This document shows positions 28,646 to 60,000 of a DNA stretch of 60,000 bases, piece by piece. The stretch's first letter is position 1. Every line of letters starts with the position of its first letter. Position numbers and translations under genes: made by a program. Source of the stretch: Amphiscolops sp. MND2022 (lineage: Eukaryota). Location of the stretch: positions 21,516,001 to 21,576,000 of the forward strand of contig OZ076409.1 in assembly GCA_964187785.1 (NCBI GenBank), in the 5' to 3' direction. The notes below the pieces were generated by a model. It was not told the origin of the DNA. It did not search any database and saw only the letters and a program-made list of their open reading frames with translations.

Positions 28646-31600
28646 ACAGCCTAATTGTTGTGATAACTTTAATAAATAGATGAGATATGGTGGTGTGCCG
28701 ATAAGAAGAAGCCCCAGTGGATTTCAGAGATCGGCCGAAGTTGACGGGGGGGGAATCACAATGCAGAATGTATAACAAAAGACGAGGCTTCGCAAAGCAT
28801 TTGCAAGAAGTGTGATGTGGAGGTCCTAAATGGGCAATTAGCAATAATGTGTGATATGTGCTCTACATGGTTTCATGAAGAATGTTCGGGTTTGTCCAAG
28901 AAGCAATTAAATTTCATCAGAGAGATCGATGCCTGCAAGAGGTTCTGTGGATGGTGTCTGGACAATGTGGCTGACAGTCTCAAGTGTGTGTCTAACAATC
29001 TAGAAATGAAGAAGGACAGCGAAGATTTAAAAAAATTAGTAACCTCATTTAATACCAATAAAACCCTCTTATGCATCCAAAGTTTCAGGAAAACCTCCCA
29101 CTAATGTGAAAGACACTTGCACTGATAATCGTAAATATCCTGATGAACAAACACTATATATTTCTGGCACAATAGATAATGATATTCTTTCTTCTAGTGT
29201 ATTACAAAAACGGAGGCTGTATACTAGTTTCCCCGGTATCAAACTGGATTTCATTTTTACCAACAAGCTCGGGAAGATTGAACTATTATTTAACAACAAA
29301 GACTGTTGCACTAGAGTGAAAAACAAATGGTGTTCGAATCTTCTCGGTACATATACTAGATTTTTTCACCGAATGAAAGCAGATCACACAGGAGTATAAT
29401 CCGAGATGTGCCGGTTGAAATTTCCACTGATGACATCAAAAATGTTTTAGCTGGCGAAAAAGAGGATGAACTTCAAGTGATCCGATATAACAAAGGCGGA
29501 AAGGCCATACCTTTAGTGGAACTAGTTTTCCAGAAAGAATGCACATTCAACAAAAATCTTCAAAATGGAATTACGCTAGAGTATATGTACTTCAAGATGG
29601 ACCCAAAACGTACCACCAAACGGATTATTCAATGTTTCAACTGTCAACAATGGGGTAGTCATGTATCCAAAATTTGTAAAAACCAATCGTGGTGTGCCAT
29701 CTGTGGCTACGAGCATCCAATAAACAGTCATAAAGAAAATGAATGCCAGGGAAAACATGAACATACAAAAGATTGTATCCCACCAAATGAAATCTATTGT
29801 GTGAATTGCGGCAAGGATCACATAGCTTTTGACAAAAACTGCGAAATGTACCAGGAAATGTGGAAAAAGTTGAACAGAGTCAACTCGTGATGAAACAATT
29901 TCTCTTAGCCATGACTATAAACATTGCTGGTCTCTCCGCTCACTCGTGTATTGCTATGGATAAATATATAAACGACAACAACATAAACGGTATTACGATC
30001 TCTGAAAGTCATGGAAAATTTCAGGGTTTTGGTAACTACGATGTCCACCGTGCCCATTCAAACAAACTTGGTTGCTCCTTGCTCATACACAAACACTTAA
30101 ATTCCTATGAAGTGAAAAGAACACCCAGAGAAGGCGTTGATTGCTGTTTTGCAGCAATCTCTATTGAAAAGAGGAAATTTTTGCTGGGATCAATATACGT
30201 ACATTTAGGAAACACTGAAAACATCGAAAGCGCCACAGATGTTCTGACTGAAGTGTATACGTTATGCAAAAACGAAAATATAACCGGACCAATAATCTTC
30301 GGGGATTGGAATTCGAGGCATCCACTATGGGGCGATGAATTAGAAAATAAATATGGTAATTTACTTGCCGACTACTGTGCCGACAATAGACTTTCTATAA
30401 TAAGCCCTCACCAGCCCACTTTTGTCTCAGCAAGCAAGAAAGGTAGCAGCATAATCGATTTTTGCATCACTGAACAAAAGTGCTCTGATCTGGTATGCAA
30501 TGCACGAGTGATCGAAGACTTCGAATTCTTCTCTGGTGCTCCAGAGCAAGGTCATTGGCCTGTTCTATTTGATATAGATATTCCTGTGAAACATGATAAT
30601 CCTATACGGTGTGTGCTAAACTACAAAATGGCAAATTAGAAAGAAATAAGTATCCAACTGGAAAATAATATGGTGGAAAACATGGATAGCATGATAACGG
30701 AGGGCACCTACGAAAGTTCTCCTAATGTTTATGGACCTAGTGAGAGGAGTTTGTGAAAATTCGATTCAACGGAAAACACTCTGTAAACATTTCAAACCAT
30801 ACTGGAGCAATAAATTGACTCATTTATCGCAAAAATTGAAAGATGCGCGCAAAAACTATAGACTCCAATGTCGGAACCCGAAAAACAAGAACATTGTTGA
30901 ATTAGCTAAAACCGAATTCAAAAAGGAAATGAAAAAGTATATTACCTGTTGGACGCAAAATGGCATCATGGAATTGAATGAGGGAAGCTCTAAAACACTT
31001 TTTGATAATATCCGCAAATTCAATGATTCAATGGACTTAAATGACATAGGAGTAGTTCGTCACAAGGGTAAGACACTGGAAAAGGATTGCTATAAAGCTG
31101 CGCGCTTTCAACGTATTTTCTTCGATAGTGCACACCTTCCTGGTAAACTATTTGACACGCTTTCTATGAAAGAAAAAACAAAAGTAGAAGTGAAAGAGAA
31201 GTTGACTCACACCTTTGTGGATTATTACAAGGAGTAGGTCAATATGATCTAAACATGCGTATTACAATGGATGAACGTAAACAAGCCATAAAGAAAGTGA
31301 AGACAAACAACAAGGGCGTTGATCCTTATGGCCTTCACCCTAAACTATTAAAGAAATTCGAATTTATCACCATTAGCATATGTTTGCACTTTGTAAACAG
31401 TGCATTCTTCTTGGGGATTTGGCATTCGATAAAACCATAGTCAAATTCTTGGAAAAGTCTGGCAAAACTGATTATTCTAATCCATCTTCATGGAGACCTA
31501 CTTCACTTACATCCCATTTAGGAAAAGTAGTTGAACAAGTGATAGAAAACTAAGATCATCAGTATTTCTCGACATTGATGATCATCAGTATTCCTCGACA

Positions 31601-34518: not shown

Positions 34519-34899
34519 CGAATTTATAGACAACGGATACATTTTTCAACCGGTGGCCTTGGAAGTACATGGTTCTTTAGGCGAGAGCAGTGAAATTTTC
34601 ATCACTCGTCTCTGTAAAATGCTCTGTCGTTCGTACGACGATCAACGAGCTGGCAGCGGATTTCAATGGCTCTTCAGATCGGCAATGCGGCCTGTGTTCT
34701 AGGAACTGTGAGAGACAGAGATGCGTTCGAAGAAATTTATTACATATAGTTTTTTAATACTCTCTTTTAGTTACTCTATAGTTTATTAACCTCTCTATAG
34801 TTTTTACTCTATAGTTTTTTTAACCTCTCTTAATAATTACAGCTTTTAAAAGAATTACCGGTCGACTGCTATAGTGGCTGGTATGAGTAGTTTGTTGGT

Positions 34900-37430
34900 T
34901 GTTGTTTTTTGTTACTGTCTTCGGTCCTAAATCATTTTGCACTAAATGTTTGTTGCCCAACGATTCCAACAAGAGTAGGCAAAACCTCTGAAACTCACAT
35001 CGATTATATAATAATGGAAAATGTTCAAAATTCGTTTGTGTTTGACATACCCTTCAAAACAGACCATTTCGCTTCAATACTTTTTAGTAGTGAGAAGAAG
35101 AGAGATAGAAAACCAATAGAAAAAATGGTTTTTGATAAATCCAGGTTCAATAGGGATGAATTTCGCACAACTTTAAGATCTCTGGATTGGGACCTAATGT
35201 ATAATCAATGTAATGCCGATTCTATGTTGTACACTTTTATTTCTCTATTAAGTGGAGCTTTGAAGCAGCACGCTCCTTTAAAGAAAGTTTTTATCCGTAC
35301 TCAAAAACCAAAAAAAAACACCTTAAGTCAGAATGGTTCGACCATGAATGTAAATGCCTGCTACAAAAAAGAACAATAGCTCTTAAACGTTACCAACGCC
35401 AAACTTCTGCTATAAATTGGGAGAAATACAAAACATTGAGAGCAGAGTTTTCGGAACTAATAGCTAAAAAGCAATCTGAATACAGCTTGAACTTATTGGA
35501 AACCTTCAAATCGTCCAGAAAAACATGGAATTTTATCAACAACCTACGCAATACAAAAAGTGAAAACTCGCGAATATCGGCACTAATGAATTCTTTCGGA
35601 GATTTAATTACCGAAGACAAAAAGATTGCGAACCTACTGAACTATACATTTTCACACCTAGGTGATTACTACGGAAGAAAATTACCAAATAACATTGAAA
35701 GCAAAACTACACCTAAATTGTTTAGTTTCCGACCAACCACCATCAAAGAAGTCTTCGATGCAGTAAAATCGTTGAAAATCAATAAACCCCTAGGAACATG
35801 CTCGATACCAACATGGGCTTTTAAAGACGGAATGACTGAAATTGTACCACATCTCACAATGGTTATAAATGAATACATTAAAAAACAAAAATTTCCCTCA
35901 ATTTTGAAGAAAGGTCTCATTACACCTTTATATAAAAAAGATGACCCACTAAACCCTTTGAACTACAGACCCATTACAATAACGAGCAGTTTGTCAAAAA
36001 TATTTGAAAAACTTTTGCATTAACAAATTAATCAAAACCTATCATCAAATAAACTTTTGTCTCCTCTTCAATTTGGCTTCCGTGAGAAAACATCAACACA
36101 AGATGCTCTCATTTATTTCACCGAATCGATCCGTAAACATGTTGACGAAAACGATACTATTTATAGAGTATGTATAGATCTTTCAAAAGCATTCGATTCC
36201 GTCTCCCATCAATTTTTGTTGGAAAAATTGAACTTAATAGGCTTCAATATTGATGCTTTGGAACTAAATTTTAGCTTTTTATCACACAGAAGCCAACAAG
36301 TTGTCATCAATAATACGGTATCCGACATCACCGAAACATATCAAGGTGTACCGCAAGGAACAGTACTTGGACCATTACTTTTTAACATCTACATAAACGA
36401 TATTACAAAATACATCTCGGAAGAGTGCAGAATTATCCAATACGCCGATGACTGTTTGATATACTCAGCGAATCCAAAACCTGACATTGCATTTGAGAAT
36501 TTACAAATCTGTCTTGAAAAACTAGAAAATTATTTTCGGTCAAATCAGGTAACCCTGAATGCTTCTTAAACAGAATTCATACGTTTCTCAACACCAAAAT
36601 TAACCGTATCCAATAGTCAACTTATAGTTGCTGGTTCCAATATAAAACTTAAGAATGAAGTAAAGTTTTTAGGCATTATCATCGACAATAAACTAAGTTT
36701 CGAATATCAAGTTAAAAGTGTGCTTAAAAAAATGGCCCTTGGCATAAAAGCAATTCAAACAATACGCAACAACCTACCCAAAAAATGTTTAAAAGTGCTG
36801 CTTCATGCTCTCGTCCTAAGTCATTTTGAATATTGTAACCTTCTAACGGACATCAGTAGTGCTCTTTTACTTTCTTTAGAGAAACAACTGAATTGGGCTC
36901 TTAGAACCGTGTTCTACAGATCTAGAAACAAATGCTCAACCTCTTCGAGAATATCTGAAGAAATTTTAAGTATGAAACAAAGAAATGACTTGAAATCATT
37001 TGACTTATTATATTCGATTCTCAAAAACGAAAGGTCAGCTTTTCAGAATCATCTTAAACTCCCAACAATGAGTTTTCGAATTAAGGAAAGAAACAAAAAA
37101 ATAATATTGAAAGAGCCTGGTTCCAGTAAGTTTCTTCATGGATCCTTCTTTTATACCTGTGTGAGAAGTTGGAATTCCTTACCCACTGAACTGAGAACAA
37201 TCAAATACAAGAGAGAAAAATGGAAGAAACTTATCAAAGAACACATGATACAACTTTACAAAGATTGTCCAACTTTTTATAAAAACCATATTTGGCACGG
37301 CTTCCAACTTCTCCAATAGTTCAACAGTGCTACTTTATTTTAACTTCATTTCAATTACTACGCCTACTGTACCAAATAAGTTGTTTCTTTTTTATAAGGT
37401 ATAGTAATTAAGCGTCTTTCTCTCTCTCTC
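34900..37430 (+). mobile_element. CR1/L2-group LINE, 5'-truncated ORF2 (end of APE + RT)
   Basis: PTRV..SETHIDYI, TDHF, NYRPITI, QFGFR, IDLSKAFDSVSH, GVPQGTVLGPLLFNIYIND, QYADD, RSWNSLP; (TC)n near 37420; internal stops. Confidence 0.9.
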
Positions 37431-38524: not shown

Positions 38525-41500
38525 ATGGTTGTAGATTCTGATGCAGACACGGATTCAGTATATGAGGTTGAGTACGAGAGGCAAAGTCACTTAATCACCT
38601 TGGATGAAATTTACAAACTCGCCAAGAAAATAAGCGAAGACTTCGACGAATTTTCTAAGGTTTGTCAGTATTTATTGCTTTATCATTTTTCGCTTTCATT
38701 CAACTTCCGAACTAAAATAATTTCTGAATTTTTCAACACCATTATGCAGTCATCCTTGGTTGGCGACTGCTTTGGTCATTTCGAAAACCTTCCGTGAGTT
38801 AATTAGCTTGAACGTAGTATGCGCCAAAATTGTTTGAGTGCTCGATATTTGATTAATTGAAATTCCGTTCTGTCCATAAGGACCCAGCTTTGCGGCTCTC
38901 ATCTTACGCATCATCTGTGATTTGAATTGAGTCAAATCTAGTTTTTATTGATTTTTTGGTTTAGCATTGATGCTAATTTGGTTTGCGTACAATAATTATT
39001 TTTTGGAGCTGCCCGTTCGGCTTCCTTTTGTGTTCACTCTATCATTTTTTTCTTACAGTTATCAGAATTTGCATTGTGCTTTTTGGGTCTTAAGCGGGTC
39101 GTTTTGTTTATTGAGACGTTCTTGTCTTGTTTGTCATAAACTTACCGACAATTGATGTTACTAATGAAGAATTTGGTTCTACAATCTTTTCTTTTTTCTT
39201 TCATATATTACAAGTATAAACCAGCTGGGGACGGTTCTGGCGTTTCGAGTATGTTTTGGACGTCCTTAGTTCAAGTTGACGATGTTGAACAAATGAACAA
39301 AAAAGGTGGACCAATCGCGTTGAACTGACAAAAAAACTAGCCACTGTAAGAGTCGTGCATTTTCTTGGCAAACGCCGACTGAAAGGGACCGCGCGTATTG
39401 AAACCACAAGTTCTTTTAGAAACTTCATCTTACGCATCATCTGTGATTTGAATTGAGTCAAATCTAGTTTTTATTGGATTTTTTGGTTTAGCATTGATGC
39501 TAATTTGGTTTGCGTACAATAATTATTTTTTGGAAGCTGCCCGTTCGGCTTCCTTTTGTGTTCACTCTATCATTTTTTTCTTACAGTTATCAGAATTTGC
39601 ATTGTGCTTTTTGAGTCGTAAGCGGGGCGTTTTGTTTATTGAGACGTTCTTGTCTTGTTTGTCATAAACTTACCGACAATTGATGTTACTAATGAAGAAT
39701 TTGGTTCTACAATCTTTTCTTTTTTCTCTCATATATTACAAGTATAAACAAGCCGGGAACGGTTCTGGCGTTTCGAGTATGTTTTGGACGTCCTTAGTTC
39801 AAGTTGACGACGTTGAACAAATGAACAAAAAGGCGGACCAATCGCGTTGAACTGACAAAAAAACTAGCCACTGTAAGAGTCGTGCATTTTCTTGGCAAAC
39901 GCGTATTGAAACCACAAGTTTTTTAGCCTGTTTGTGCCCATTGTACAGAGGGGGCCTGTTGGTAAAGGTTAATGAGAGAAATAACAAAAAAACGGTCACA
40001 TAAAAACAATTCTAAAAACATCGGCAAGTGGAGGATGATTTATAAAATAGGTCATCGTATCTCAATTTTATTGAGCGTCCAGAGAAAAGGTGTTGATTCT
40101 ATGATTAGTCACACTCGAAGGATTGTCAACTTCATGACAGCCCTCCCTCGTGGACAACAGCGCTGTTCGAAGATTTCGTGGCTGGTTGACAACGCGTGGA
40201 CCTACAGCCTCTCAGACACTGGACGCAGTTGCGGTATAGGGCGCAATTTATTTTAGTTCGGATATAGCTCATGGCTTCAGAGTAACTTTCAGTGCTTTTT
40301 TCGTTGACTTTTGACGCAAGTTTGGTTATGGTTATTAATTTCGTGGCTGATGGTGTCCAGTGCAGACAAATACGAGCGTGTTGCAAGTGCTTTTTTTCAA
40401 CGTTGATAATTCGCGACTCATCTTTGAGCTTCTTGTGTTTCGTGGAACTTGTATGCCTGGTTGATATCTTTCGGGCATGATTTGGCTAGTGGGTTAAAAA
40501 TTTTTACGTTGAAGAAAGCTCGGCAAAAACGTGAATCCCAGAGTCCATTGGCTTTAATGTTTAGTCTTGCTTCGTCTTCAGTTGTCGTGGTTTTATGAAC
40601 GAAGGACTCGCCTTCTCACGGCTGAAGCTGCGGCTCGATTTCGGAATCCGAACAGACATCCTTCATGATGGCGGCGAAAGTGTCTCGAATTTCATCGTGT
40701 CGCATTTGTGTATTACCACCTTTGTTGCCTTGAAGGGAATGCGACAGCCTAAATGTGTCTCCGCACGGACATTTTGCCGGTATTTTTAGTGGTTCCCAGC
40801 CAATAGCGCAGAGCTAAATCGTCGCGTCAATGTGTTCGATTCTACATTTTTGACCAAGACAGTTGCTGGTTTGTGCCAAAGAGCTTCAGGTCATTCTGTA
40901 TGCATCGGAGTATGCTTCGACCTATGATGCGTCTCAGAACACCGATGGGTCTTACGCCTGGGTTTTTGACTAAGGCGTTGTAAGGCTCTAGAATGTCAGT
41001 GGCGATTCTTACCGCGATATGCGCGACTGTGCGGCATAGTGATGTCGACGCTTGGTTGAAATTGGAAAGCCAGCGCCGCCATTCGTTGGCGTCCACACCA
41101 GATGGTCCATGGCTTCCGTGTGTCTTCATGCGGCACTACGAATGACACTGCTTTGAATTTTGTCGAAAATCACAGGGTGGTATGGTGTGCCGGTTCTATA
41201 TAGTGGTCGTCGTGGAGATGTTTCTTTCAAGATGTCGAGGACTGATTTCTTATCGATTTTCTCTGTCTGTGAGCCGTCTTTTTCACAATCGTTGATACAT
41301 CTCAGAGCATTCGAGATCTTTACTGCGGACATGTGTGCATCAAATTCTCTGAGTTCATCTTTCCTACTCCGGTTTCGTTGACCCTTTCTGTAATGCTTCT
41401 GTCTCGTGAAATAGGTCTTCGATTTCACCTGTCAGCCACATTCTTAGTCTCCTTGTGGTTAATTGGTTTCGAGATGTGTCGGGCTCACTGCGGGTTCTCG

Positions 41501-44500: not shown

Positions 44501-47500
44501 ACCACCATTTTCACGCCGATCCTCGTTGGCATGTGAAATGTTTTCTAGGAAATGGAGGAATCTGAAGAATTGATGAAGGAAGAATTGCGATCGCTTTTGG
44601 CTGATTGTGAAAAACAGAAGCAAGAGAATGAAAGACTGAAGACGTTGATTTCTGAAGAGAGTGCCCCTCTGGTTGATGAACAAGTTGGCAGTTTTTGCAG
44701 CGACGAAGGTAAGGTCTCTATCTGAATTATAGGTTTCGAAGTACTTTCCCATTGAAAAAAGTCTCATCAAAATACAACAGATCTCATCGAATGTCTAAAA
44801 TCCCAAGCTAGTTACTGTAGTACTCATGTTATTCTGGTGTCTTTATTTTTCTATAAAGCTTTCAATTTTGAACGGTATTTGAACACTTCCAATGTTATAT
44901 TTTGATGTTTTGAATCAAAGAAAAAATCGGGGAAAAAACTGACACATTATCGAAAAAATGCAAAACCAATATAATCAAATTTTGAATTATATTAGTTATT
45001 CTTCTAGTTGGCTTTGGAAAGATAAAATCGGCATTGTTTAGATCCGAAAAGTCGTCTGCTGCATGTCGCAATGAAAAAAATGCTTGATATCCGAAATAAA
45101 ACGTTGTATCCGAATTATATCACGTTTCCAATATTACAATGAGTCTGGTCAAGTATGCAGATCAAAAAATTAGTTCTGAGCGAGATTCGAAGCCCCGACG
45201 TGCTAGCGAAGCATGCATCCTAACCAATGAAAAGTACACTGGAGCTTATCTTTGTAACAGGATGCTTCACTGAAGACTCAACGTGAGGTCGGTGTAATCA
45301 GCAGGTTGCTTCTTTCTATCTCGTTTGAGCTCTTGCTGACCTTTTAGAGAACTTTGCGAAGGAGACTTTGAGCCAGTTGAAGGAAACAAACCGTGCTCTG
45401 AGGCAGCAACTGGCCCTGTGTGAAACTGAGCTGGAGGAAGAGAAAGATAAGAACGAAGAGGTGAAACATCCTTTCCTCGTAGTTTGTTTGGTCATTTCAT
45501 GAATCATTGGCAGCAGCCAGTTTAGTTGAAGTTCAGCTATTCAGGTCTTAAAATACACTATGGTAGCAAAAAGCGACGTACAGCTGAAAATTAAATCTTA
45601 TTCAGTTTGTGAAGAACTTTTCATTTTCATTCTCAACCGGAAGTGAAATCAATCACTCTTGAATTAAACATTGTTGAAAATGGTCAAACCTTTGGATTCA
45701 TACGTTGTTTGCAAAATCGTTACACTTCGCGAAATGGGTTTATCATACAAAGGAATTAAAGAAAAGTTGGGTCTTAAATCTCGATCGACAGCTCAAACAG
45801 CTTATCAGCGTTTTTTGAGAACGAACTCTTATGTGGCGAAAAAACCTCCAGGCCGGCCAGAAAAGCTCAGCGAAAAAGAGCAAAGAATAATAGTTCGAAG
45901 AGTGGAAAAGGACCTAAAAACAACATTAGAACGAGTAAGAGTACTGCAAAACTCTTTTTCAACGTCACAGACAGTTTCTAAATGTACTATTCGAAAAATC
46001 CTGAAGAAGTGCGGAATGGTTTCTAGAAAAGCCGCAAAAAAGTTCAACTTGAACAAAAAACAAAGACTGATCAAAAAGCGCTGGTGCTCGAGAATGTTGA
46101 AAAAGCCCCTTGGTTTTTTATCCAGCGTCAATTTTCCACCGAAATGGGAAAAAGTTTTGGAATTTTTTGAAAAAAAAATACTTGAGAAAAATCTCAAAGT
46201 GCCGAAAAAACCAGAACGAAATAAAAAATTTTATCAAATCAATCACTTTCGTAGAGTGAACTAATAGCGCTTTCGATGGTGCGCTCAATGATACAAGACG
46301 AGATTATCTAAAGTCGGCGCTAAACCTAAGGCTCAAAAAGCGCAAAGTATAGAAACTCTGCTCAGGATTTTTATGAAATGACAAAAAACACCAAAAGATT
46401 ATAACGTTTGAAAGATGACCTTTTAGTTTTGTTCGGTTTTGTATGTTACGCTAAAAAAGAGAGAAAATGAGAGAGGGGACCTTCTGCACTACCTTAGATG
46501 CATTTTCGCCGGCCAGATTTGGGTGGTATTGTAAGCTTGAAGAAGGTTGATTTTGTTTCACTCGAACTTTTGCATTTTTGTTCTGAATTTTGGCTGGATG
46601 GAAACTAGGTTTCTGGGAAAACGTCGTTCGTATTCTCAGACAAAACCCGTGTGCGCTTGAATAGTGATGGCGTTGTGCGGGTGTTCAGGAAAACTGGTCG
46701 TCGCTTTTGCCCCAAAAACACCCAAGGAATACACACGGACAAAAGAATTATGATGTTTTGGGGGGCAATCAGGTCAGATGGTACGAAAATGCTAATTAAA
46801 TGTCCCGCAACACTTAACAGGTACGGTTATTTGGAGATTTTAAAGCAATACGGTCGACATTTGAATATACCGGATTTGGTGTTCCAGCAAGACAACGCCC
46901 TAGTACACAAAAGTGAAGTTGTTCGCAATTTTCTGACCCGAAAGCAATGGGAGGTGCTGGATTGGCCAGCTTACAGTCCTGACCTGAATCCTATTTAAAA
47001 TATTTGGGCCATTTTAAAAAAAAGCTTGCGAGGTCAGATTGTTACCTGGGAGAATTTAGAAGAAAAGGTTATGGAAGTGTGGAACAACATAAACCCTGAT
47101 GTTGTTCGCAACTTGTACTCATCGTATGAGAATCGTCTCGTGAAGGTAAACAAAGTCCATGGTAGTTTGACGGGATATTGATTCATTATTTGTTTCAACA
47201 GTTGTTTCAAATTTTACTCTGTTCTGTGTTTTTTTTAAAAAAATGTTGGTGTACGTAGCTTTTTGGTACCATAGTGTATGTTCGGAGAAAGTAAAAAATC
47301 ATATGCGTTAATCATCCACTATCAATCTTTTTACTAGTCTTTGGGCGATCTTGAAGAAATTCCTCTATAGCGAATTTTTTGCACATGACGAAGTCAATGT
47401 GCATTGCAGTCCAGCTAAGAAAGTTTTTTTTCCACAATAGTCAACTTCATAATGAGCGCTTTTTAGAATAAAGCCAAAACCCCAGAGAGATTCGAACCTG

Positions 47501-50500: not shown

Positions 50501-53500
50501 TTTTACGAATAATGAAAAATACGAATTAACGGATGGTATTACTTTGGTCGTCGAATGGTGGTGTCAGATACATACAAATTAAACAAGTTCCGGATACAAA
50601 CTACCGGAGTTGACTGTATTTGCTTCTCATACGTTACTTTATGAATATCGACAAATGGTTTCTACTACCTTTTCCATCATAAAAGCGTTATATTCAATAC
50701 CTTGAACATTTCACCTCTACAAAATGCTTTGACGTTTGGAATACTCCCTGAAGATATACAAACGGTCTGTTATTAGCAGCAGTTTGAGATTGAGGCTTAG
50801 ATTTTAAATTACTTCGCCTGAGACTTGTATGACTTTTCATAACCTGTTGAGTGCAATTTTTTAATTGCAGAATCTCCTCGACGAGCTGAATAAAGCTATT
50901 GCTTCTGACTCGTTGGAAGAAAATGAATTTTTGCTTCGGCCTCATCTGTCTACTCTGAAGGAGGAGCCATCAGTTGAGATCGAAGACATGGGGACGGACG
51001 AGGAGGGTGATGTTCCTAAAGACGAGGCCACAAATCTTTCAGAAACGCCTGATGCGAAAACAACTGAAGTTTCAGAACCAACGACCGCTAATGAAGAAAC
51101 CTCAACTTCTGAAAGTAAAATTGTTCAGCTTGAGAACAATTCATCTGAAAATGGAGACATTCGTGTTGTTAATCATCCTTATGGGAATTATTCAAGCTAT
51201 GATGAAAATCATTTCATGTCTAGTGACGACTCATCGTCTAATCATGTCACCTGTGCTTCAGAAATAGCCGATGTTGTCAAAACATCATCTTTAGAGGGTA
51301 GAAATTTTGTTCTTGAACAATCATCCAAGAATGAATCTGAAGTTTCGGATGATATTTTAATCGAAAATTCGTCAACGGACGCTGAGAACTCTTCAATTTC
51401 AGGAAAATCACCCATAGCGCTATTTGTACTGTCTGAGGTTCAAAAGTTTGATGTAAATTCATTGCCAGAGAACCAAGGAGAAAATCTTCGAGAAGAATCA
51501 ACTGAAAAAGATAGTAGTCAAATGGATCCTTTATCTGCTGAAGTTGATTCAAAGGAGGTTGTTCAAAACTCGGTGCTAAGGAAAACGAATTTAGAAAACA
51601 ATGATTTCTCTGAACAATTTAATTTTGACATCGAAATTTCACTGTTGGAAAATATCGCAAATAATGATCTCAATCTATCGGCTGCTAAAATTTCGTGTTC
51701 TGGTGAATCAGCTGAAAATTCTTCAGTTGAAGTGCAGCATTTTACTCCTAGAAGTAACTTCGAAACCTCTGAATTACCGCAATCGGGAAGCATATGTGAA
51801 AACAAAGACGTCGGTGAATATTCTCCAATCATTCACCAGACAGTATCGAGTGAATCGAGCGTTGATTTTTCTTCTAGAGTTGAAATATCGAATTCAGTGA
51901 ATAATCCTTTTCAAAATGCGTCAGCTCTAGATGCGACTAGTAATATTGATGCTACAACGGCCAATCTTGATAGTTATCTGAAAACTGAAAGGGCAACGGT
52001 GAAAGTCACAGATCCCTTTGATATTGCAACGTTTGACGTCGATGCTTCGTTGCCGGATAACGAACTTTGTAGTAGTCCAAATGATGTCTCTGTGACCGCA
52101 ATATTTGATGTAGACGACGCTGTTTGTCGAATTGACTCAAACAAAGTCAATGAGAAAGGAGCAGTCATTATAACGCTCCCATGTCAATATTCAGCTGACG
52201 AGAACATTAGAGCTCGCAACAATTCCTCGATAGGTCTCCGGAAAATTTTCAAGCGATCTTCTAAAAAGTCCAAATCACGGCAATCATCTGTCAGAAAGAC
52301 TGAATCATATGAATTAGCCAATGTCTCTATGAAATCCTCATGTTTGGGATCAACTCATGTACAAAATCAATCATCCAAATCTGATATAATGGAAAGCAGA
52401 AAAACAATAAGTGAGAATGATCGTTTTGGTCTAGACAAGTCCATAATCGAACAGCAAAGCGAGGACGCTAATGGTGATTCGGCCAATGACGTTCAGTCTA
52501 CGAAGTTGTTGATACCCGATGACAATGAAATGAGGGCAGCTCGAGGCCTGAGATCAGCTACCATGTCATCGGTGGAAAGCGCAGACACTGAAAGTGGTAG
52601 CGTGGGAGTCGGAGAAGTCACTGTATCCAAGATGAAGATGTCGAGACAAGCGTCACGGGAGACCCGTTACAGGGTGAACTACAGTAAATCGATATCGCAT
52701 CGGAGGAAAACGGTGATGGAAGGGTTGCGTGAAGAGAAGTCCGTAGATGGTGAAATGGGAGATATCGTTGGGAAAGGAATCGTGCACCAGACAACTGCTG
52801 ATATTGTGCAGGAGTCTGATTTGAGGAAACAGAAACGATCCGATTTTTACAAGCAACAGGACGTCCAAGTCAAAACTGTTAGTTCAAAAGTTCGGTATAC
52901 TTACCATCAGAGTTTTGACATCGCTACTTTTTCTCGCTAAAAACAGCTAATTTCAAAATCGCTATTTCGCTGAAAAACTTTTCTTCAAACTATCAAATGT
53001 TTTAAAGTAAATAACTCAATTCAATTTTTGCAAGAAAAAACTAGAATTTTTCTTACTGTGTTGGTTTTACAAGAATAAAAATTGGAATTTTCGAAATGCT
53101 GAAACCATGTATTTTCCGAGGACTTTTTGAACTTGGACAGTCAAATTCGGAATTTGAACCGCGGATTAGCGGCGTCAAAACTGCTTACCATCCTAATAAA
53201 AACATGAATCTAGTCTCATAATGACAAGTCATTCATTTGTCACGATATCATGGAACAAGCCGGGAACGGCATAAGTCGGCGCCATATCTGAGGCTCAAAA
53301 ATAGTAAAAGGTCTTCGAGGTGTCAAGTATTCTCTTTTACAGTACCCGAAAAACCCAAAAGTTGGACCGAATTGGCGCACCGGGAGCCCGATAGCGTGTG
53401 CCCCTGGCGCGCTAAAAGGGAGGACCCTTTCGGATTTTTTAACATCCATTCTGTTACAAAATATCAAAAAATTGAAGGGGGACCCTTTGGAGAAAAAGTT

Positions 53501-55180: not shown

Positions 55181-55628
55181 GTCAGTGCTATTATTGGATC
55201 AAGAAGGTTTTTCGAATATCGACACTGAACTGATCTGTCTGAAGCGTTCTGTGCTGATCCATTGACCTAACAATGATATTTCTTACTTCCAAGCCAATCA
55301 AGTTTGTTCAACGGTCTATTTCAACTCTTTCAGTATTAGAAGAATGCATGCTATTTTTTTCTGGCACAAATTGCCTATTTTTGCGCTTTAGGCTTCGTAA
55401 TGGTTTCAAAATCATGAGAATTTTCCTTTGATCAATGAAATCTAATATTTCTAACGCTGAAATGAAATTCTACACTGAGGCTGAAAATTCGTTTCGATTT
55501 GTACAGCAACTGGATCAGACTATAAGTTTAGCAACCGTGACTATTGTTGCTAAATTGATGCACAGAAGCTAGCTATTTTTACTATTTCGGATGTGTGGAC
55601 GGTTGTCTTGAAAGTCTAAATTTACTTC

Positions 55629-55885
55629 GTTTAGTTATTCGCTAGAGATTGTTCTTGTTTGTAAAAATTAGTTTCAGTTTGAAATACTTTAGATTAAAGA
55701 GTAAGAAAGTCCGACTAACATGGCTGGTAGTTGTAGCGATTGTGTTGGTAAACTGGGTCAAAAAATTAACTGCAACTTGTCAACTGGCACGGGTCAGACG
55801 GGCGGCAACAGGTTAGTAATATTTAATTAAACAGGCCCCGGAAGGTTTAAGTTTGTGTTGAGATTCGAGGGAAATTTGGGGAAGA
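55629..55885 (-). repeat. Diverged direct copy of LTR-element internal segment 56686-56941
   Basis: Colinear ~255 bp match (GTTTAGTTATT..GCTAGAGATT ... GAGATTCGAGGGAAAT..GGGGAAG) with scattered substitutions. Confidence 0.85.
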
Positions 55886-55983
55886 GACGTCGTGAAATAC
55901 ATGTTCTTTTTAATAACAAGAAGAAGCTTGAGGATATAAAACTGCTAGTTTATATTAAAAGCGAATTAGCGTCTGTCAGAAAA

Positions 55984-56184
55984 TGTAACGTTTAGTAGAA
56001 ACAATGTTATTATTACGGGACACTTGGCTTGATCAAATTTAGGGACATTTTGTTTAAATAAGCAGTTTATTGTTTGTCAGTTTGAGTGTTATTATTTCTC
56101 CAGAAGAGTTCTATTTTGTTATCTGTTATCTGTAGCCAATGAAAATACTGGCTTGCTGTTACTGGTTCACTGCAGTCCGCTATA
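55984..56184 (-). repeat. Putative 3' LTR (~200 bp)
   Basis: Termini TGTAACG...CGCTATA (imperfect inverted repeat), adjacent polypurine tract, minus-strand AATAAA near 56066-71; the partner LTR is not in the window. Confidence 0.6.
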
Positions 56185-56850
56185 AATGCCCCCTCCCTGT
56201 GGCTTGCGTCCTCGTAAGGTTAGGTGGATGGATGAAAAAGGACCATTAACTGCGGGTAAACTGTTGGTCCTTGGGGGAAGGCGAGTTGAATCCGGGTTTC
56301 TTGAGGTACAGTCCCCACACGTATGGTCGCTATCTAGTAGGAAGCGAAGGCCACAATGATCGTATACACGACCCAATGTTGGAATACTGAGAACTCGTTT
56401 GATTGCTGTGATGAGGGGGACTAAGCGCGCGGCATCTTGTACCTGTGGATTGTCATAGGAGGTCAAAGTTTTAACGGGAGGTGAGAATCGGAGCAGTGTT
56501 TTAGCATGCAAAGCAACTGTGTCGTCGGAGGCGGAAGGTGTGCAGCATAGAAAATGGTAGAAAATAGTACAAGGTGTTGATGTGGTATAAAAATCTATGG
56601 GCAACGAGAGCGAATGTCCTCTGATTAAGGACAAAAGGGCACGGGAACTGCCATTATCTGTGTGGGCTAACCTACTGCGTAAATCGTTTAGTTATTTGCT
56701 AGAGATTTTTCTTGTTTGTAAAAATTAGTTTAAGTTCGAAATACATTTGATTAAAGAGTAAGAAAGTCCAACTAACATGGCTGGTAGTTGTAGCGATTGT
56801 GTTAATAAACTGGGTCAAAGAATTACCTGCAACTTGACAACTGGCACGGG

Positions 56851-57174
56851 TCAGACGGGCGGCAACAGGTTAATAATATTTTTTTGAACAGGCCCCGGAG
56901 GGTTTAAGTTTGGGTTGAGATTCGAGGGAAATCCGGGGAAGTCGGAAATTTCCTCAATTTTTGTTAGGGAATCAGCCATGAGGCTGTTATGAGTGCTGTT
57001 GAGATCTGTTTGGGCAGTGCGCAAGTCCTCAATACGTTTCTGCAGGATGTTCTCTGTCTGAAGTGCTTTTAATTGAGAGTAGGCTTCCAGAAAGCCTTCG
57101 TGCAGTTTGGAGCACTCCCTGCGGGCATCGTTGAAAGCCCTCTCCAAATGCTCGACGGAGCTAAAATCCGTCAT
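56851..57174 (-). CDS. Putative accessory coiled-coil protein of the LTR element (107 aa)
   Basis: ATG-initiated open frame with heptad-like segment and Pro/Asn-rich end; its ATG overlaps the stop of the upstream ORF (TAATG). Confidence 0.45.
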   Translation of the reverse strand: MTDFSSVEHLERAFNDARRECSKLHEGFLEAYSQLKALQTENILQKRIEDLRTAQTDLNSTHNSLMADSLTKIEEISDFPGFPSNLNPNLNPPGPVQKNIINLLPPV

Positions 57175-57657
57175 TAAGTTGCACTATTCGTCCATGGCGT
57201 CTTGTTTGATAAGGTTTGCTTGTACTTTCGGGGCACTGGGTCTAGGCAAAAGCAGTTGTTAGTGGGCAGGTCGACTTCGGCGACGGACTCAGCAGTAAGC
57301 GGAGGCGTGACCCAGAGTTTGTTGAGGAAACGACGAAAGGGAGAGCGATTATCGTTCACCTTCTGTAAGGGACAAGTACGGCCATCCGGGAAGAGTTTCT
57401 TTGATATAGCGGGTATACTCGACTAGGTGAACCATGTCACCGACACCAACTGGAGCGACGCGGTCAAAGCAGGTGACCACTGGGGTCTTGGAAGCAGCCG
57501 GGGCCAAGAGTATACCTAAGAGACCAAAAAAGGGAGGTAACAAAGACTAGGGGTATCCTACTAAAAAGCATGGAAACATGCGAAGAGCAGGACAGTCGTC
57601 CAGGGTTTTCAAATAGAAGGTGAACACTGAGCATCATCATCAGATGAAGAATAAAAG

Positions 57658-57925
57658 CGCAACGTAAAAGTACGTGCGTTTGCATCACACGAGGTGACTA
57701 CTATGCGGAGTATGAACGTGGAAACACGTTCCGGGGCATCACACAAGGTGAAGAATAATTGTCAATGAACGCGGAAACACGTTCAAGGGCATCACTTGAA
57801 GTGAGATTTGGTTAATTGAACGCGGAAGCACGTTCGAGAGCATCACATAGAGTGAAGATGTGTTTGCAATGAACGCGGAAACACGTTCGAAAGCATCACT
57901 TCAAGTGACGATTTGTTGGATTAAT
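57658..57925 (-). repeat. Array of five ~52 bp double-hairpin units
   Basis: TGAACGYGGAARCACGTTC-N4-GCATCAC-N5-GTGA at 57713, 57766, 57817, 57870, plus a diverged unit at ~57658. Confidence 0.9.
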
Positions 57926-58027
57926 GATGTGAGTGTTATTGTGCTGTTGAATCGTTATAAATAGGTGCGCTAATAGGAGGGTAAACACGGTTAGGAAGTG
58001 TGGGGGGATGTGTTGAATTTTCATGCG

Positions 58028-59900
58028 TTAGAGAAGAAGTAAGACGCTTAGTGGTTGCATAGAAGCGTTGAAAGTCGAAAGTTGAACAGGTTGTCGTAAC
58101 GTTTCTTGTGCGAGTTTCTGCAAAGCATGGAACTCAGTGACGGAAAGATAAAGGAAAGATGAATCATCACCATGAGGCCGCTGAGAAGAGTCACCTATGA
58201 TGTGCAGAAAACGTACATCACGGTGAGGATGGGAGAGCATGCGTTGTCATTATCGACGAAAGAGGGTGAAACTGACACAAAAGGTTAACAATGAGATGGT
58301 AATAGACGTGAGAGAACAGAACGGCTGTTTTTGTAGGTAGATAGGATGACAACGCAGCAAAAGTAGCAGGAGAAATATACGAGTAGTATTGAGCATTGGG
58401 TCGTGTTAGTTCGTCCTATGACGAGCGATGACATGATACATGCAATCTGCTAGGTAAAAAGCTTGCGGAGCATCCGGTAAAAGAACAGATTCCACTTTAC
58501 AGTTACGATTAGATGCGACATCATAGTTATGAAAAAGATAAACAATTGTATCATCAGAAGTAGTAGAAAAACTTTTGCGGCACAGTTTAATACGGGTATT
58601 ACCAGAGCATTGTTGCAATGTTGACGCTCCAAGTTCTGCAAACTGTGGATTATCTGTAGAAATGGGTAAAAAAGTCTTTGCAAGCTGATATAAAGAAGCA
58701 GTGAGATCGTCGTTAGGTTGGTACAAAGAAGTGGCGTGATAAACGTTAAAAGTAGAAGACTTAGAGTTCATGGGAACACCAAGGACAACTGAAATGCTAG
58801 TAGTTAAAAGTGAGACTTCCAAAACCATATTTGTTTCATAACAGACAGCTTCCTGTCCAACACGGATTGCCGGAGAAAGTTTTGTGCCACGGAGAATCTC
58901 ATCATAGGCCAGTTCTCGGACTATGGAGGCAAATTGGTCGGGGAGTAAAATCTGTGGTTTAACATCCAGCGGAAAGGGATGAAATTGTGGAAAAAAGGAA
59001 ATTTTTAGGCGTAAAATGCCGCTCGAAGACTTTTTACGTGCGTGTACAAGTGTCCTAACTGTCCAATGTAATCACGAATTTGCTGCGCGATGACCACGTT
59101 CCGGGTTATATGTGAATAGCCATCATGTAGAGTAGACAAGGTTTCTTTTATGTTGAGAATATCATTCTCGAGGGTTTTGAGGTGAGTACCCACAACTTTT
59201 TATCTTTGCAACACTTTCGTGAGTGCTTTTTATCTCATTTCCCAATAGGAAGAAATTTCTGTCATTCTTCGTTTGCACTCTCGTCAGAGTGTCTTGCAGT
59301 GCCTGCTGGTTTCTCATTATATTGCGAACATCAGCCTCAAGGGTTTATTTTCAGTGCAAAGGCTAAAAATTGAGAGTGCTGAATATGCAGCCTCTTTGAC
59401 TGGGTCACCTAACTCCTGCGGCTGCCACTCTTAGACCAAGGGCTCTTTTTCCTCTATGGTCCACGTTTTGGGGTTCCTGTGACAGAAACGATTTTGCCAC
59501 CCGGAGTAACTCCGTTTTATTGTATTTCCTGCTCCAGTAGAGGCAGTTTCGCTTCTTATTCGTTGAACAAGAGTTCAAAGGCATCCTCATCCTGGCCGTT
59601 TTGCATAACTTGACAGTTTCCATTCTGGTGAGCGTATTAGAGTGTCCTCTAGTCTGCAGTATGGTGTGGGCATCTGTCAAGTTGATTGCCGGAATCTCAG
59701 GGAATGGCGAAAACACTCGAACTTTGCTTTCACTTTCCGAAGTGACAGCTTGACATTTGTAGACAAACGCGGCTCCTTTCTTGAAGACCGGTGTTTTGTC
59801 CTTATTGATGTTGGTGTCGTATTGCACGCCATAGGAGCTCAAGACTAGACGGCAGAATACGAGAAGGGGGATGAAGGAATATTAAGTCAAAGTAGACATT
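58028..59900 (-). pseudogene. env: env-like class I fusion glycoprotein (errantivirus/baculovirus F-like organisation), frameshifted
   Basis: Hydrophobic leader LIFLHPLLVFCRLVLS; furin-like RGKR|ALGLRVAAAG; heptads (DVRNIMRNQQALQDTLTRV, LKTLENDILNIKETL); Cys-rich ectodomain (LQQCSG..KLCRK..NCKV); TM-like LTSITISLLTFCVSFTLFRR at ~58255-58315; cytoplasmic tail. Confidence 0.75.
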
Positions 59901-60000
59901 CTTTGAAGTCTAAACACGTCAAGCAGTAGTACATTGGGTGTAGTGCATAGAAGCGGATGTGCGGAGGTAGTTTGTTAGTGTTGTTAGCACTTCTTACCAG

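What the first reader, a model, noticed from the sequence alone, without database searches (positions are those of the whole stretch)
55984..60000. Envelope-bearing LTR element with a complex-retrovirus-like 3' region in an invertebrate-type genome
Seen: an env-like gene with leader, RGKR cleavage site, hydrophobic fusion-peptide-like stretch, heptads, Cys-rich domain and TM. About 1.8 kb of extra sequence with several ORFs follows before the PPT and LTR. Known: env-bearing Ty3/Gypsy elements (errantiviruses) use baculovirus F-like class I fusogens and normally have little between env and the 3' LTR. Inference: a lineage of formerly infectious LTR elements with accessory genes. This copy is decayed.
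Basis: partly seen in the sequence, partly recalled or inferred. Interest (0 to 1): 0.72.

Follow-up and report, generated by a model that had tools for sequence, protein, structure and literature searches.

The report
Retrotransposon with envelope and J-domain gene
This decayed, envelope-carrying retrotransposon in an animal genome has one extra gene behind its envelope gene, kept across many related element families, whose protein carries a J-domain and likely recruits the host's Hsp70 chaperone, an accessory gene type that my literature searches did not find described for such elements.

Summary
The env is real: a broken minus-strand gene (about 59881-57936) whose intact relatives have a leader, furin site, fusion peptide and TM and are related to baculovirus-F-type fusogens. 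One relative is read through from an LTR-element integrase. F-type env on Ty3/gypsy elements is already known across invertebrates (PMC13524379), so that part is ordinary.

The 1.75-kb 3' region does not hold several ORFs. It holds ONE gene (ORF4, 340-390 aa in relatives), broken here by frameshifts and a 258-nt insertion. ORF4 is predicted as an SH3/KOW/Tudor-like barrel, a long coiled coil, a J-domain and a Cys/His tail. HPD is kept in 33 of 38 aligned relatives and in all 11 families. ORF4 follows env in all three DNA loci that reach past the env stop, pairs family-by-family with env (18 of 20 shared contigs unambiguous) and co-diverges with it. Between env and ORF4 lie G-UUUC-C hairpins (5 here, 4 in a relative) and a likely splice acceptor.

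Best reading: a spliced accessory protein that recruits host Hsp70 (untested; helix-II basic residues are mostly lost). Pol, 5' LTR and host phylum could not be checked.

The parts
57936..59881 (-). env gene, F-type class I fusogen-like; decayed (about 10 frame changes, several stops, about 113 codons lost near 58412)
   Evidence: tblastn and frame tracking against natural relative P0136; 135 longer homologs; P0039 passes the Baculo_F cut-off; family profile hits PDB 9w4c 'fusion protein', E 1e-8
59444..59455 (-). RGKR furin-type site, followed by a hydrophobic Ala/Gly-rich fusion-peptide-like stretch
   Evidence: sequence; R-x-x-R at this column in 28 of 29 aligned relatives
58268..58324 (-). 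env transmembrane segment (approximate)
   Evidence: maps to the hydropathy peak at P0136 659-677
57712..57915 (-). 53-nt tandem array, 3.9 copies; each unit carries a 7-8 bp hairpin with a G-UUUC-C loop (one unit G-CUUC-C)
   Evidence: TRF; hairpin counts and folds
57566..57585 (-). fifth G-UUUC-C hairpin with a different 5-bp stem
57516..57540 (-). likely splice acceptor (pyrimidine tract, TTAG|GT) at the point where ORF4 conservation begins
   Evidence: highest pyrimidine score among AG sites of the spacer; same TTAG|GT at the homologous F-R-S codons in L002; inferred, no RNA evidence
56942..57515 (-). ORF4, 5' part: SH3/KOW/Tudor-like barrel, CxC linker, coiled coil; broken by frameshifts and one stop
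   Evidence: matches P0370/P0371 N-terminal half; model of relative P0376
56684..56941 (.). 258-nt unrelated repeat inserted into ORF4; unclassified
   Evidence: ORF4 is continuous across this point in relatives; second copy at 55627-55884
56220..56683 (-). ORF4, 3' part: end of coiled coil, J-domain (HPD motif not intact in this copy), D-H-C-G and CxxC tail; one frameshift near the end
   Evidence: 83% to P0370; Pfam DnaJ on relatives; PDB J-domains
56189..56198 (-). polypurine tract candidate, 22 nt after the ORF4 stop
   Evidence: sequence; read-through tails of P0371 and P0375 translate the same G-rich junction
55984..56184 (-). candidate 3' LTR, 201 nt (AATAAA inside; ends GTTACA; imperfect terminal inverted repeat)
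   Evidence: sequence only; no second LTR or target-site duplication can be checked in the window
55627..55884 (.). second copy of the 258-nt repeat, outside the element; not part of it

Best explanation
This is the decayed 3' end of an envelope-carrying LTR retrotransposon whose family has one conserved accessory gene (ORF4) between env and the likely 3' LTR; ORF4 encodes a J-domain protein that likely recruits the host's Hsp70 chaperone to the element's own particles or RNA-protein complexes. Shown: env homology; one ORF4 gene; its position behind env; its co-divergence with env; a conserved HPD motif; J-domain homology. Predicted: a small SH3/KOW/Tudor-like barrel, an 85-residue coiled coil, a J-domain and a His/Cys cluster that could bind zinc; no signal or TM in the conserved part, so a soluble cytosolic or nuclear protein. 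Inferred: ORF4 is made from a spliced subgenomic mRNA (acceptor at 57516, no conserved in-frame Met); the barrel picks the client (the hairpin-bearing genomic RNA or a viral protein), the coiled coil oligomerises, and the J-domain brings in Hsp70 to remodel or assemble the complex. This copy is dead; many relatives keep both frames open.
For: Env: 135 homologs of 388 aa or more; R-x-x-R plus hydrophobic peptide in 28 of 29 aligned; Baculo_F 29 bits against cut-off 24.1 in P0039 (1 of 29 members at E<=0.001); profile to PDB fusion protein E 1.1e-8; P0144 joins an integrase core and p58_C/GPY-F-type C-terminal domain to env, with hits to foamy-virus and Ty3 integrases. ORF4: 71 homologs, 11 families at 70% identity, HPD in 33 of 38 rows and in every family, J region 56% identical between families against 37% for the coiled coil. 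Pfam DnaJ 38.6 bits (cut-off 27.8) for L001 ORF4 and 24.1 bits, E 4e-5 for P0370; best PDB hit DNAJC5 J-domain, E 5e-7; model pLDDT 77.6, J-domains fill the top Foldseek ranks (no E<=0.001) and score VIA Z 6.4-7.7. Linkage: ORF4 directly follows env in the window, L001 and L002, all 3 loci that reach past the env stop; 20 contig lengths shared between 181 ORF4 and 220 env proteins, with 18 of 20 in consistent family pairs (modal score 19 of 20, permutation p 5e-5). Env identity 64-70% goes with ORF4 45-50%, env 48-50% with ORF4 23-30%. A profile without L001-type rows finds L001 ORF4 at 51.5 bits.
Against: The basic residues of helix II, which J-domains need besides HPD (abstract of PMC1906734), are mostly lost: K or R at the DnaJ K26 position in 7 of 38 rows and R at R22 in 2 of 38; only the L001 type looks canonical. 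In the window's clade the Pfam score is below cut-off and only 12 of 38 rows match DnaJ at E<=0.01. Contig-length identity is a proxy for co-location, and 2 of 20 pairs (P0398 family) point to two different env families. The acceptor in L002 is not among the four most pyrimidine-rich AG sites there, and none stands out in L001. The env model was poor (pLDDT 47), so its fold is not confirmed. No pol, 5' LTR or TSD could be seen for this copy.
Confidence: 0.55

Rival explanations
1. ORF4 is a Rev/CERV-like regulator: its barrel binds the G-UUUC-C hairpin array just upstream of its own acceptor and licenses export or stability of unspliced genomic and env RNA, with Hsp70 as a helper. This is a more specific form of the best explanation.
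For: All 4 minus-strand GTTTCC sites with stems of 5 bp or more (of 18; 0 of 20 on the plus strand) lie in the 421-nt spacer; in L002 4 of 4 sense-strand sites lie in the spacer, 3 with 6-7 bp stems of different sequence. The pair next to the closing pair varies among U-G, U-A and C-G, and the U-G pairs work on the sense strand only. The array would be removed from a spliced ORF4 mRNA, as the RRE is from rev mRNA (recalled). The barrel aligns with Spt5/NusG KOW domains, Z 6.3-7.2. Precedent: CERV of Cer1 (abstract of PMC10309623).
Against: L001 has ORF4 but no GTTTCC hairpin. Four of the window's five hairpins come from one tandem duplication. Tudor and BAH domains score as well as KOW. Whole-spacer folding is not more stable on the sense strand (-115 against -124 kcal/mol).
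Confidence: 0.2
2. ORF4 is a non-stimulating pseudo-J-domain or decoy that dampens host chaperone-dependent defence (for example small-RNA loading) or uses the J fold as a protein-interaction surface.
For: Loss of helix-II basic residues in 10 of 11 families, with strongly conserved hydrophobic substitutions; added conserved Cys/His residues around the J-domain.
Against: HPD itself is kept in every family and the distant L001 type has a canonical basic helix II. No call links ORF4 to silencing.
Confidence: 0.17
3. The barrel is a Tudor/BAH-type chromatin reader and ORF4 steers integration or transcription of the element.
For: PHF1 and SMN Tudor, EBS and Rsc2 BAH domains align at Z 6.5-6.9.
Against: Z under 8 on about 55 residues is a common fold match; no aromatic cage was tested; it does not explain the J-domain.
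Confidence: 0.05
4. ORF4 is a host gene fragment or a separate repeat that happens to lie next to env, not a working part of the element.
For: No locus with both LTRs was obtained; J-domains are common host genes.
Against: Same position in 3 of 3 loci, family-wise pairing and co-divergence with env, open frames and motif conservation across 11 families, clusters of up to 45 members.
Confidence: 0.03

Closest known systems
'Ancient errantiviruses': Ty3/gypsy elements with F-type env across metazoans (Chary and Hayashi, eLife 2026, PMC13524379; abstract, sections 5 part 1, 6 part 1, 8, 13, 14 read; supplements term-searched)
   Same: pol-env order in relatives; env with signal, furin site, fusion peptide, TM; multi-copy families in an animal genome
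   Different: The paper annotates gag, pol and env only; 'DnaJ', 'J-domain', 'ORF4' and 'accessory' have 0 hits in its main text and 'DnaJ' 0 in its supplements. RT placement of this lineage was not possible.
Tor elements of Oikopleura (PMC4402516; passages read) and bdelloid LTR elements with ORF3 (PMC5408684; abstract)
   Same: Invertebrate LTR elements with env-like third ORFs; spliced or internally promoted subgenomic RNA; captured extra ORFs
   Different: Their extra ORFs take the env position (env, GDSL esterase, DEDDy exonuclease). Here a fourth gene follows env and has a J-domain.
CERV of C. elegans Cer1 (PMC10309623; abstract and two passages)
   Same: Accessory protein of a Ty3/gypsy element made from a spliced mRNA; a model for the Rev-like rival
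   Different: No DnaJ or J-domain mention in that paper; no sequence comparison with CERV was run; export function is not shown for ORF4.
Viral J-domains: polyomavirus T antigens and J-domains in polyproteins of 11 RNA virus families (bioRxiv 10.1101/2022.02.15.480533; one passage)
   Same: Virus-encoded J-domain thought to use host Hsp70 for folding or assembly
   Different: Those are DNA or RNA viruses with the J-domain inside a replication protein or polyprotein; here it is a stand-alone, C-terminal J-domain in a reverse-transcribing element, joined to a barrel and coiled coil.
Cellular J-domain proteins, best hit DNAJC5 (cysteine string protein) J-domain
   Same: Helix I S-L-Y-H motif, HPDK, helix IV Y-D-x-x-G-x-x-G-L
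   Different: About 24% identity in the structural alignment, C-terminal position, reduced basic helix II; a best hit does not identify the donor gene.

Membership tests
Ty3/gypsy (Metaviridae) LTR retrotransposon | RT phylogeny within Ty3/gypsy; PR-RT-RH-IN order | not testable with these tools
   pol lies beyond 60000; no genome held; no locus with RT was found
Ty3/gypsy (Metaviridae) LTR retrotransposon | Integrase last in pol, with a GPY/F-type C-terminal domain, directly before env | tested here: met
   In a relative only: P0144 has rve (25.8 bits, below cut-off) and Integrase_p58_C (39.3, above cut-off) then env; PDB hits to foamy-virus and Ty3 integrases. Does not separate Ty3/gypsy from retrovirus-like lineages.
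Ty3/gypsy (Metaviridae) LTR retrotransposon | Two LTRs (TG...CA) with target-site duplication; PPT before the 3' LTR | tested here: inconclusive
   Purine tract 56198-56189 and a 201-nt segment ending GTTACA, beginning TA; no second LTR in the window
F-type (baculovirus F / paramyxovirus F-like) class I envelope | Signal peptide, furin site followed by fusion peptide, C-terminal TM | tested here: met
   R-x-x-R in 28 of 29 rows; hydropathy peaks at P0136 residues 6, 161 and 659
F-type (baculovirus F / paramyxovirus F-like) class I envelope | Sequence homology to F proteins | tested here: met
   Baculo_F above cut-off in P0039, 1 of 29 members; profile hit to PDB 9w4c 'fusion protein', E 1.1e-8 (that it is a baculovirus F is my reading, not stated in the output)
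F-type (baculovirus F / paramyxovirus F-like) class I envelope | F-protein three-dimensional fold | tested here: inconclusive
   Model pLDDT 47; BFVD hits mix chuvirus-like glycoproteins (ranks 1-5), paramyxovirus F0 and baculovirus F, all TM <= 0.15; nothing clear in PDB
Errantivirus in the narrow (insect) sense | POL in the insect errantivirus clade | not testable with these tools
   No RT available
J-domain protein (Hsp70 co-chaperone) | HPD motif between helices II and III | tested here: met
   33 of 38 rows, all 11 families. Not intact in the window's own decayed copy.
J-domain protein (Hsp70 co-chaperone) | J-domain sequence profile and fold | tested here: met
   Pfam DnaJ above cut-off for the L001 type, below cut-off (E 4e-5) for P0370; PDB profile hits; predicted fold aligns with J-domains at Z 6.4-7.7, rmsd 2-5 A over 64-92 residues
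J-domain protein (Hsp70 co-chaperone) | Basic helix II surface | tested here: not met
   K/R at the K26 position in 7 of 38 and R at R22 in 2 of 38 rows; met only in the L001/P0378 family (the P0386 row of that call picked a different HPD and was dropped)
J-domain protein (Hsp70 co-chaperone) | HPD-dependent stimulation of Hsp70 ATPase | not testable with these tools
   Needs an assay
Complex retrovirus-type Rev/RRE or CERV export system | Accessory protein from a spliced mRNA | tested here: inconclusive
   Acceptor-like TTAG|GT in window and L002; conservation starts at F-R-S in 18 rows, of which 16 have no Met before the conserved core; no RNA data
Complex retrovirus-type Rev/RRE or CERV export system | Structured cis element bound by that protein, needed for export of unspliced RNA | not testable with these tools
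   Hairpin array present in window and L002, absent in L001; no Rfam family matches

The most novel reading that the evidence does not exclude
An animal LTR retrotransposon lineage has independently evolved a complex-retrovirus-like regulatory circuit built on a captured co-chaperone: a spliced accessory protein whose KOW-like barrel binds an array of G-UUUC-C hairpins in the element's own intron-retaining RNA and whose J-domain brings Hsp70 to export or package that RNA, making it the first J-domain gene of a reverse-transcribing virus and a chaperone-driven analogue of Rev/RRE.
Probability: 0.2. Interest if true: 0.88.

Novelty: new variant of a known kind. Interest (0 to 1): 0.68.

Why it matters
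Env-bearing Ty3/gypsy elements are treated as simple gag-pol-env viruses. Here a lineage keeps a fourth gene after env across at least 11 families, down to 23-30% identity, with a preserved HPD motif. J-domains are known in polyomaviruses and some RNA viruses; my searches found none described in an LTR retroelement or retrovirus. If it works on Hsp70, it shows a retroelement encoding its own handle on host proteostasis and gives a small, directly assayable domain. If the hairpin array is its target, it is an independent invention of Rev/RRE-type control. It also suggests that 3' regions of published errantiviruses, which were annotated for three ORFs only, are worth re-reading.

Tried and rejected
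Pfam on 12 window ORF fragments: no hit above cut-off; the window's own J piece has no DnaJ hit. Own-genome search: no genome held. Viral contigs: no relatives with env or ORF4 queries. Prokaryote genomes: none for env; 4 weak matches and 0 loci for ORF4. Sequencing runs: none was listed, so no reads were laid. ESM Atlas: no hit of 0.9 or more for P0370 and none for the barrel of P0380. Rfam over 55400-58000: 3 matches, all E>1 and far below cut-off; the hairpin loop recalls the histone stem-loop (recalled) but has a G-C closing pair and no Rfam match, so that link was rejected. Env structure: low confidence, fold searches uninformative. A J-domain/Hsp70 complex prediction gave no verdict. The profile comparison was circular (the target was in the alignment) and is not used; one search replaces it. 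The near-miss control overstates significance because contigs of one assembly can be shared by chance; the family-pairing test is used instead. The substring HPD count (139 of 154) can pick a second HPD in one family and is not relied on. The idea that the 258-nt repeat is an LTR or an internal duplication of the element was rejected: relatives are continuous across it. It shows no clear target-site duplication and stays unclassified. One search timed out and was rerun. Earlier scan findings: none for this genome or these sequences. Supplements of the bioRxiv preprint were not seen; those of PMC13524379 were only term-searched.
Full report
Observation. The feature lies on the minus strand. Its translation pieces match a natural open relative, P0136 (794 aa), from residue 13 to the end over 59866-57936. 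The copy is dead: about 10 frame changes, several stops, and P0136 residues 515-627 have no counterpart (junction near 58412). From env stop to the purine tract (56198-56189) is about 1.75 kb. A 201-nt segment at 56184-55984 looks like a 3' LTR (AATAAA inside, GTTACA end, imperfect terminal inversion) but begins TA and has no partner in the window. Only about 120 nt lie upstream of env and no genome is held, so pol, the 5' LTR and the TSD are untested for this copy. The host is an animal by its teneurin gene; the phylum was not determined.

The envelope. One env fragment found 135 longer homologs and 198 cluster representatives; clusters hold up to 188 members. R-x-x-R followed by a hydrophobic Ala/Gly peptide is kept in 28 of 29 aligned proteins. 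P0039 passes the Baculo_F cut-off, though it is the only one of 29 at E<=0.001, and the family profile hits PDB 9w4c 'fusion protein' at E 1.1e-8. The predicted structure was poor (pLDDT 47) and its fold searches are uninformative, with chuvirus-like glycoproteins ranked above paramyxovirus and baculovirus F. P0144 is a natural record running from an integrase core and p58_C domain into env, which ties the family to LTR elements with integrase last in pol. Chary and Hayashi (PMC13524379; abstract and sections 5 part 1, 6 part 1, 8, 13, 14 read) report F-type env on Ty3/gypsy elements across most animal phyla. This part is therefore a new member of a known kind. Their genome list leaves out some phyla, so the host could extend the range, but that is untested.

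The 3' region is one gene. The 110-codon ORF at 57183-56851 found longer relatives of 297-379 aa. These map collinearly onto 57480-56938 and 56691-56223. The gap is a 258-nt insertion whose other copy sits outside the element. So the 'several ORFs' are fragments of one gene, ORF4, ending 22 nt before the purine tract. An alignment search gave 71 homologs, which fall into 11 families at 70% identity among the 38 rows aligned (the shorter hits were not aligned). A model of natural relative P0376 (pLDDT 77.6) has a beta-barrel at 48-101, a helix at 162-247 and a helical domain at 277-356. The barrel aligns with Spt5/NusG KOW, Tudor and BAH domains at Z 6.3-7.2, which names a fold and no function. 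The helical domain is a J-domain: Pfam DnaJ 38.6 bits (cut-off 27.8) for the L001 ORF and 24.1 bits for P0370, 12 of 38 rows at E<=0.01, best PDB hit DNAJC5 at E 5e-7, J-domains at the top of Foldseek (none at E<=0.001) and VIA. HPD is present in 33 of 38 rows and in every family; the J region and barrel are 56% identical between families against 37% for the coiled coil, the pattern expected of selection, though dN/dS could not be run. A D-H-C-G motif and CxxC follow and could bind zinc (inference).

ORF4 belongs to the element. Of three loci fetched, L003 ends inside env; L001 has a whole ORF4 262 nt after env and L002 the start of one. With the window that is 3 of 3 loci reaching past the env stop. 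Twenty lengths are shared between 181 ORF4 and 220 env proteins. Eighteen fall in consistent family pairs, including the window-like pair P0376/P0136; the two P0398-family cases disagree with each other; permutation p 5e-5 for the modal score of 19 of 20. Divergence is parallel: env 64-70% with ORF4 45-50%, env 48-50% with ORF4 23-30%. A profile without L001-type rows still finds L001 ORF4 at 51.5 bits. Whether all env families carry ORF4 is unknown, since the word-based search misses distant ones.

Expression and cis elements. Conservation of ORF4 starts at an F-R-S motif preceded by residues from T-rich codons; of 18 rows with that motif 16 have no Met before the conserved core. In the window and L002 the R codon lies in TTAG|GT after a pyrimidine run; in the window this is the best-scoring AG of the spacer, in L002 it is not among the top four, and L001 shows no clear site. 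I infer a splice acceptor at 57516 with the start codon coming from an upstream exon. The spacer carries hairpins with a G-UUUC-C loop: all 4 of 18 minus-strand GTTTCC sites with stems of 5 bp or more are in it, none of 20 on the plus strand, plus one variant loop. L002 has 4 of 4 such sites in its spacer with other stems. The neighbouring pair alternates among U-G, U-A and C-G. Against over-reading: four window hairpins are one tandem array, the 8-mer is not enriched window-wide (11 against 9.8 expected), L001 lacks the motif, and Rfam has no match.

Mechanism. Most likely (0.55) ORF4 is a soluble adaptor made from a spliced mRNA: barrel for client choice, coiled coil for oligomerisation, J-domain to bring Hsp70 to the element's particles or RNA-protein complexes. 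The weak point is helix II. Both HPD and a basic helix II residue are needed for function (abstract of PMC1906734), and here K/R at the K26 position occurs in 7 of 38 rows and R22 in 2 of 38; only the L001 type is canonical. That leaves room for a decoy or repurposed J fold (0.17). A sharper version, ORF4 binding the hairpins to export unspliced RNA as CERV does for Cer1 (abstract of PMC10309623; the lead came from earlier finding e1-7335181), gets 0.2. Chromatin reading gets 0.05 and a passenger origin 0.03. None of these functions is shown.

Novelty. Virus-encoded J-domains are known from polyomaviruses and 11 RNA virus families (one passage of bioRxiv 10.1101/2022.02.15.480533). Extra ORFs are known in rotifer LTR elements (abstract), and spliced or internally promoted env in Tor (passages). 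Searches for a J-domain in an LTR retroelement (listings and abstract starts only), and term searches in PMC13524379 text and supplements and PMC10309623, found none. The library lacks most subscription journals and Repbase was not searchable, so absence is not proven. Verdict: new variant of a known kind, interest 0.68.

Noticed in passing
window 55627-55884 and 56684-56941: A 258-nt repeat in two copies (92%), one inserted in ORF4 and one 100 nt beyond the candidate LTR; no clear TSD, no Rfam match; an unclassified small mobile element or fragment.
   Followed up: partly
window 6484-15808 (+): Intron-poor, very divergent teneurin-like gene (Pfam EGF_TEN, TTR_TEN1-4, GBD_Tenm3, RHS).
   Followed up: partly
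window 29360-31237 and 34891-37319 (+): Remnants of two LINE-type elements (endonuclease and RT domains).
   Followed up: no
window 45668-46264 (+): Tc1-like transposase remnant.
   Followed up: no
window 38899-39911: Tandem duplication with about 527-nt spacing, 94-97% identical.
   Followed up: no
window 50865-52940 (+): 691-codon open frame, acidic and low-complexity, no Pfam match; probably a host exon.
   Followed up: no
P0144 and P0069: Natural records in which the integrase C-terminus runs in frame into env, so pol and env abut or overlap in these families.
   Followed up: partly
L001 3351-3477: Sequence after the L001 ORF4 stop resembles, when translated, the read-through tails of P0390 and P0409 (a W-C-G motif and a downstream A-G-x-P motif), hinting at a conserved 3' element in other families; in the window the purine tract follows ORF4 almost at once.
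   Followed up: no
P0335 cluster and other distant env hits: More distant F-like env families (23-34% identity over the searched part) exist in ENA, NCBI and Logan records; whether they carry an ORF4 is unknown.
   Followed up: no
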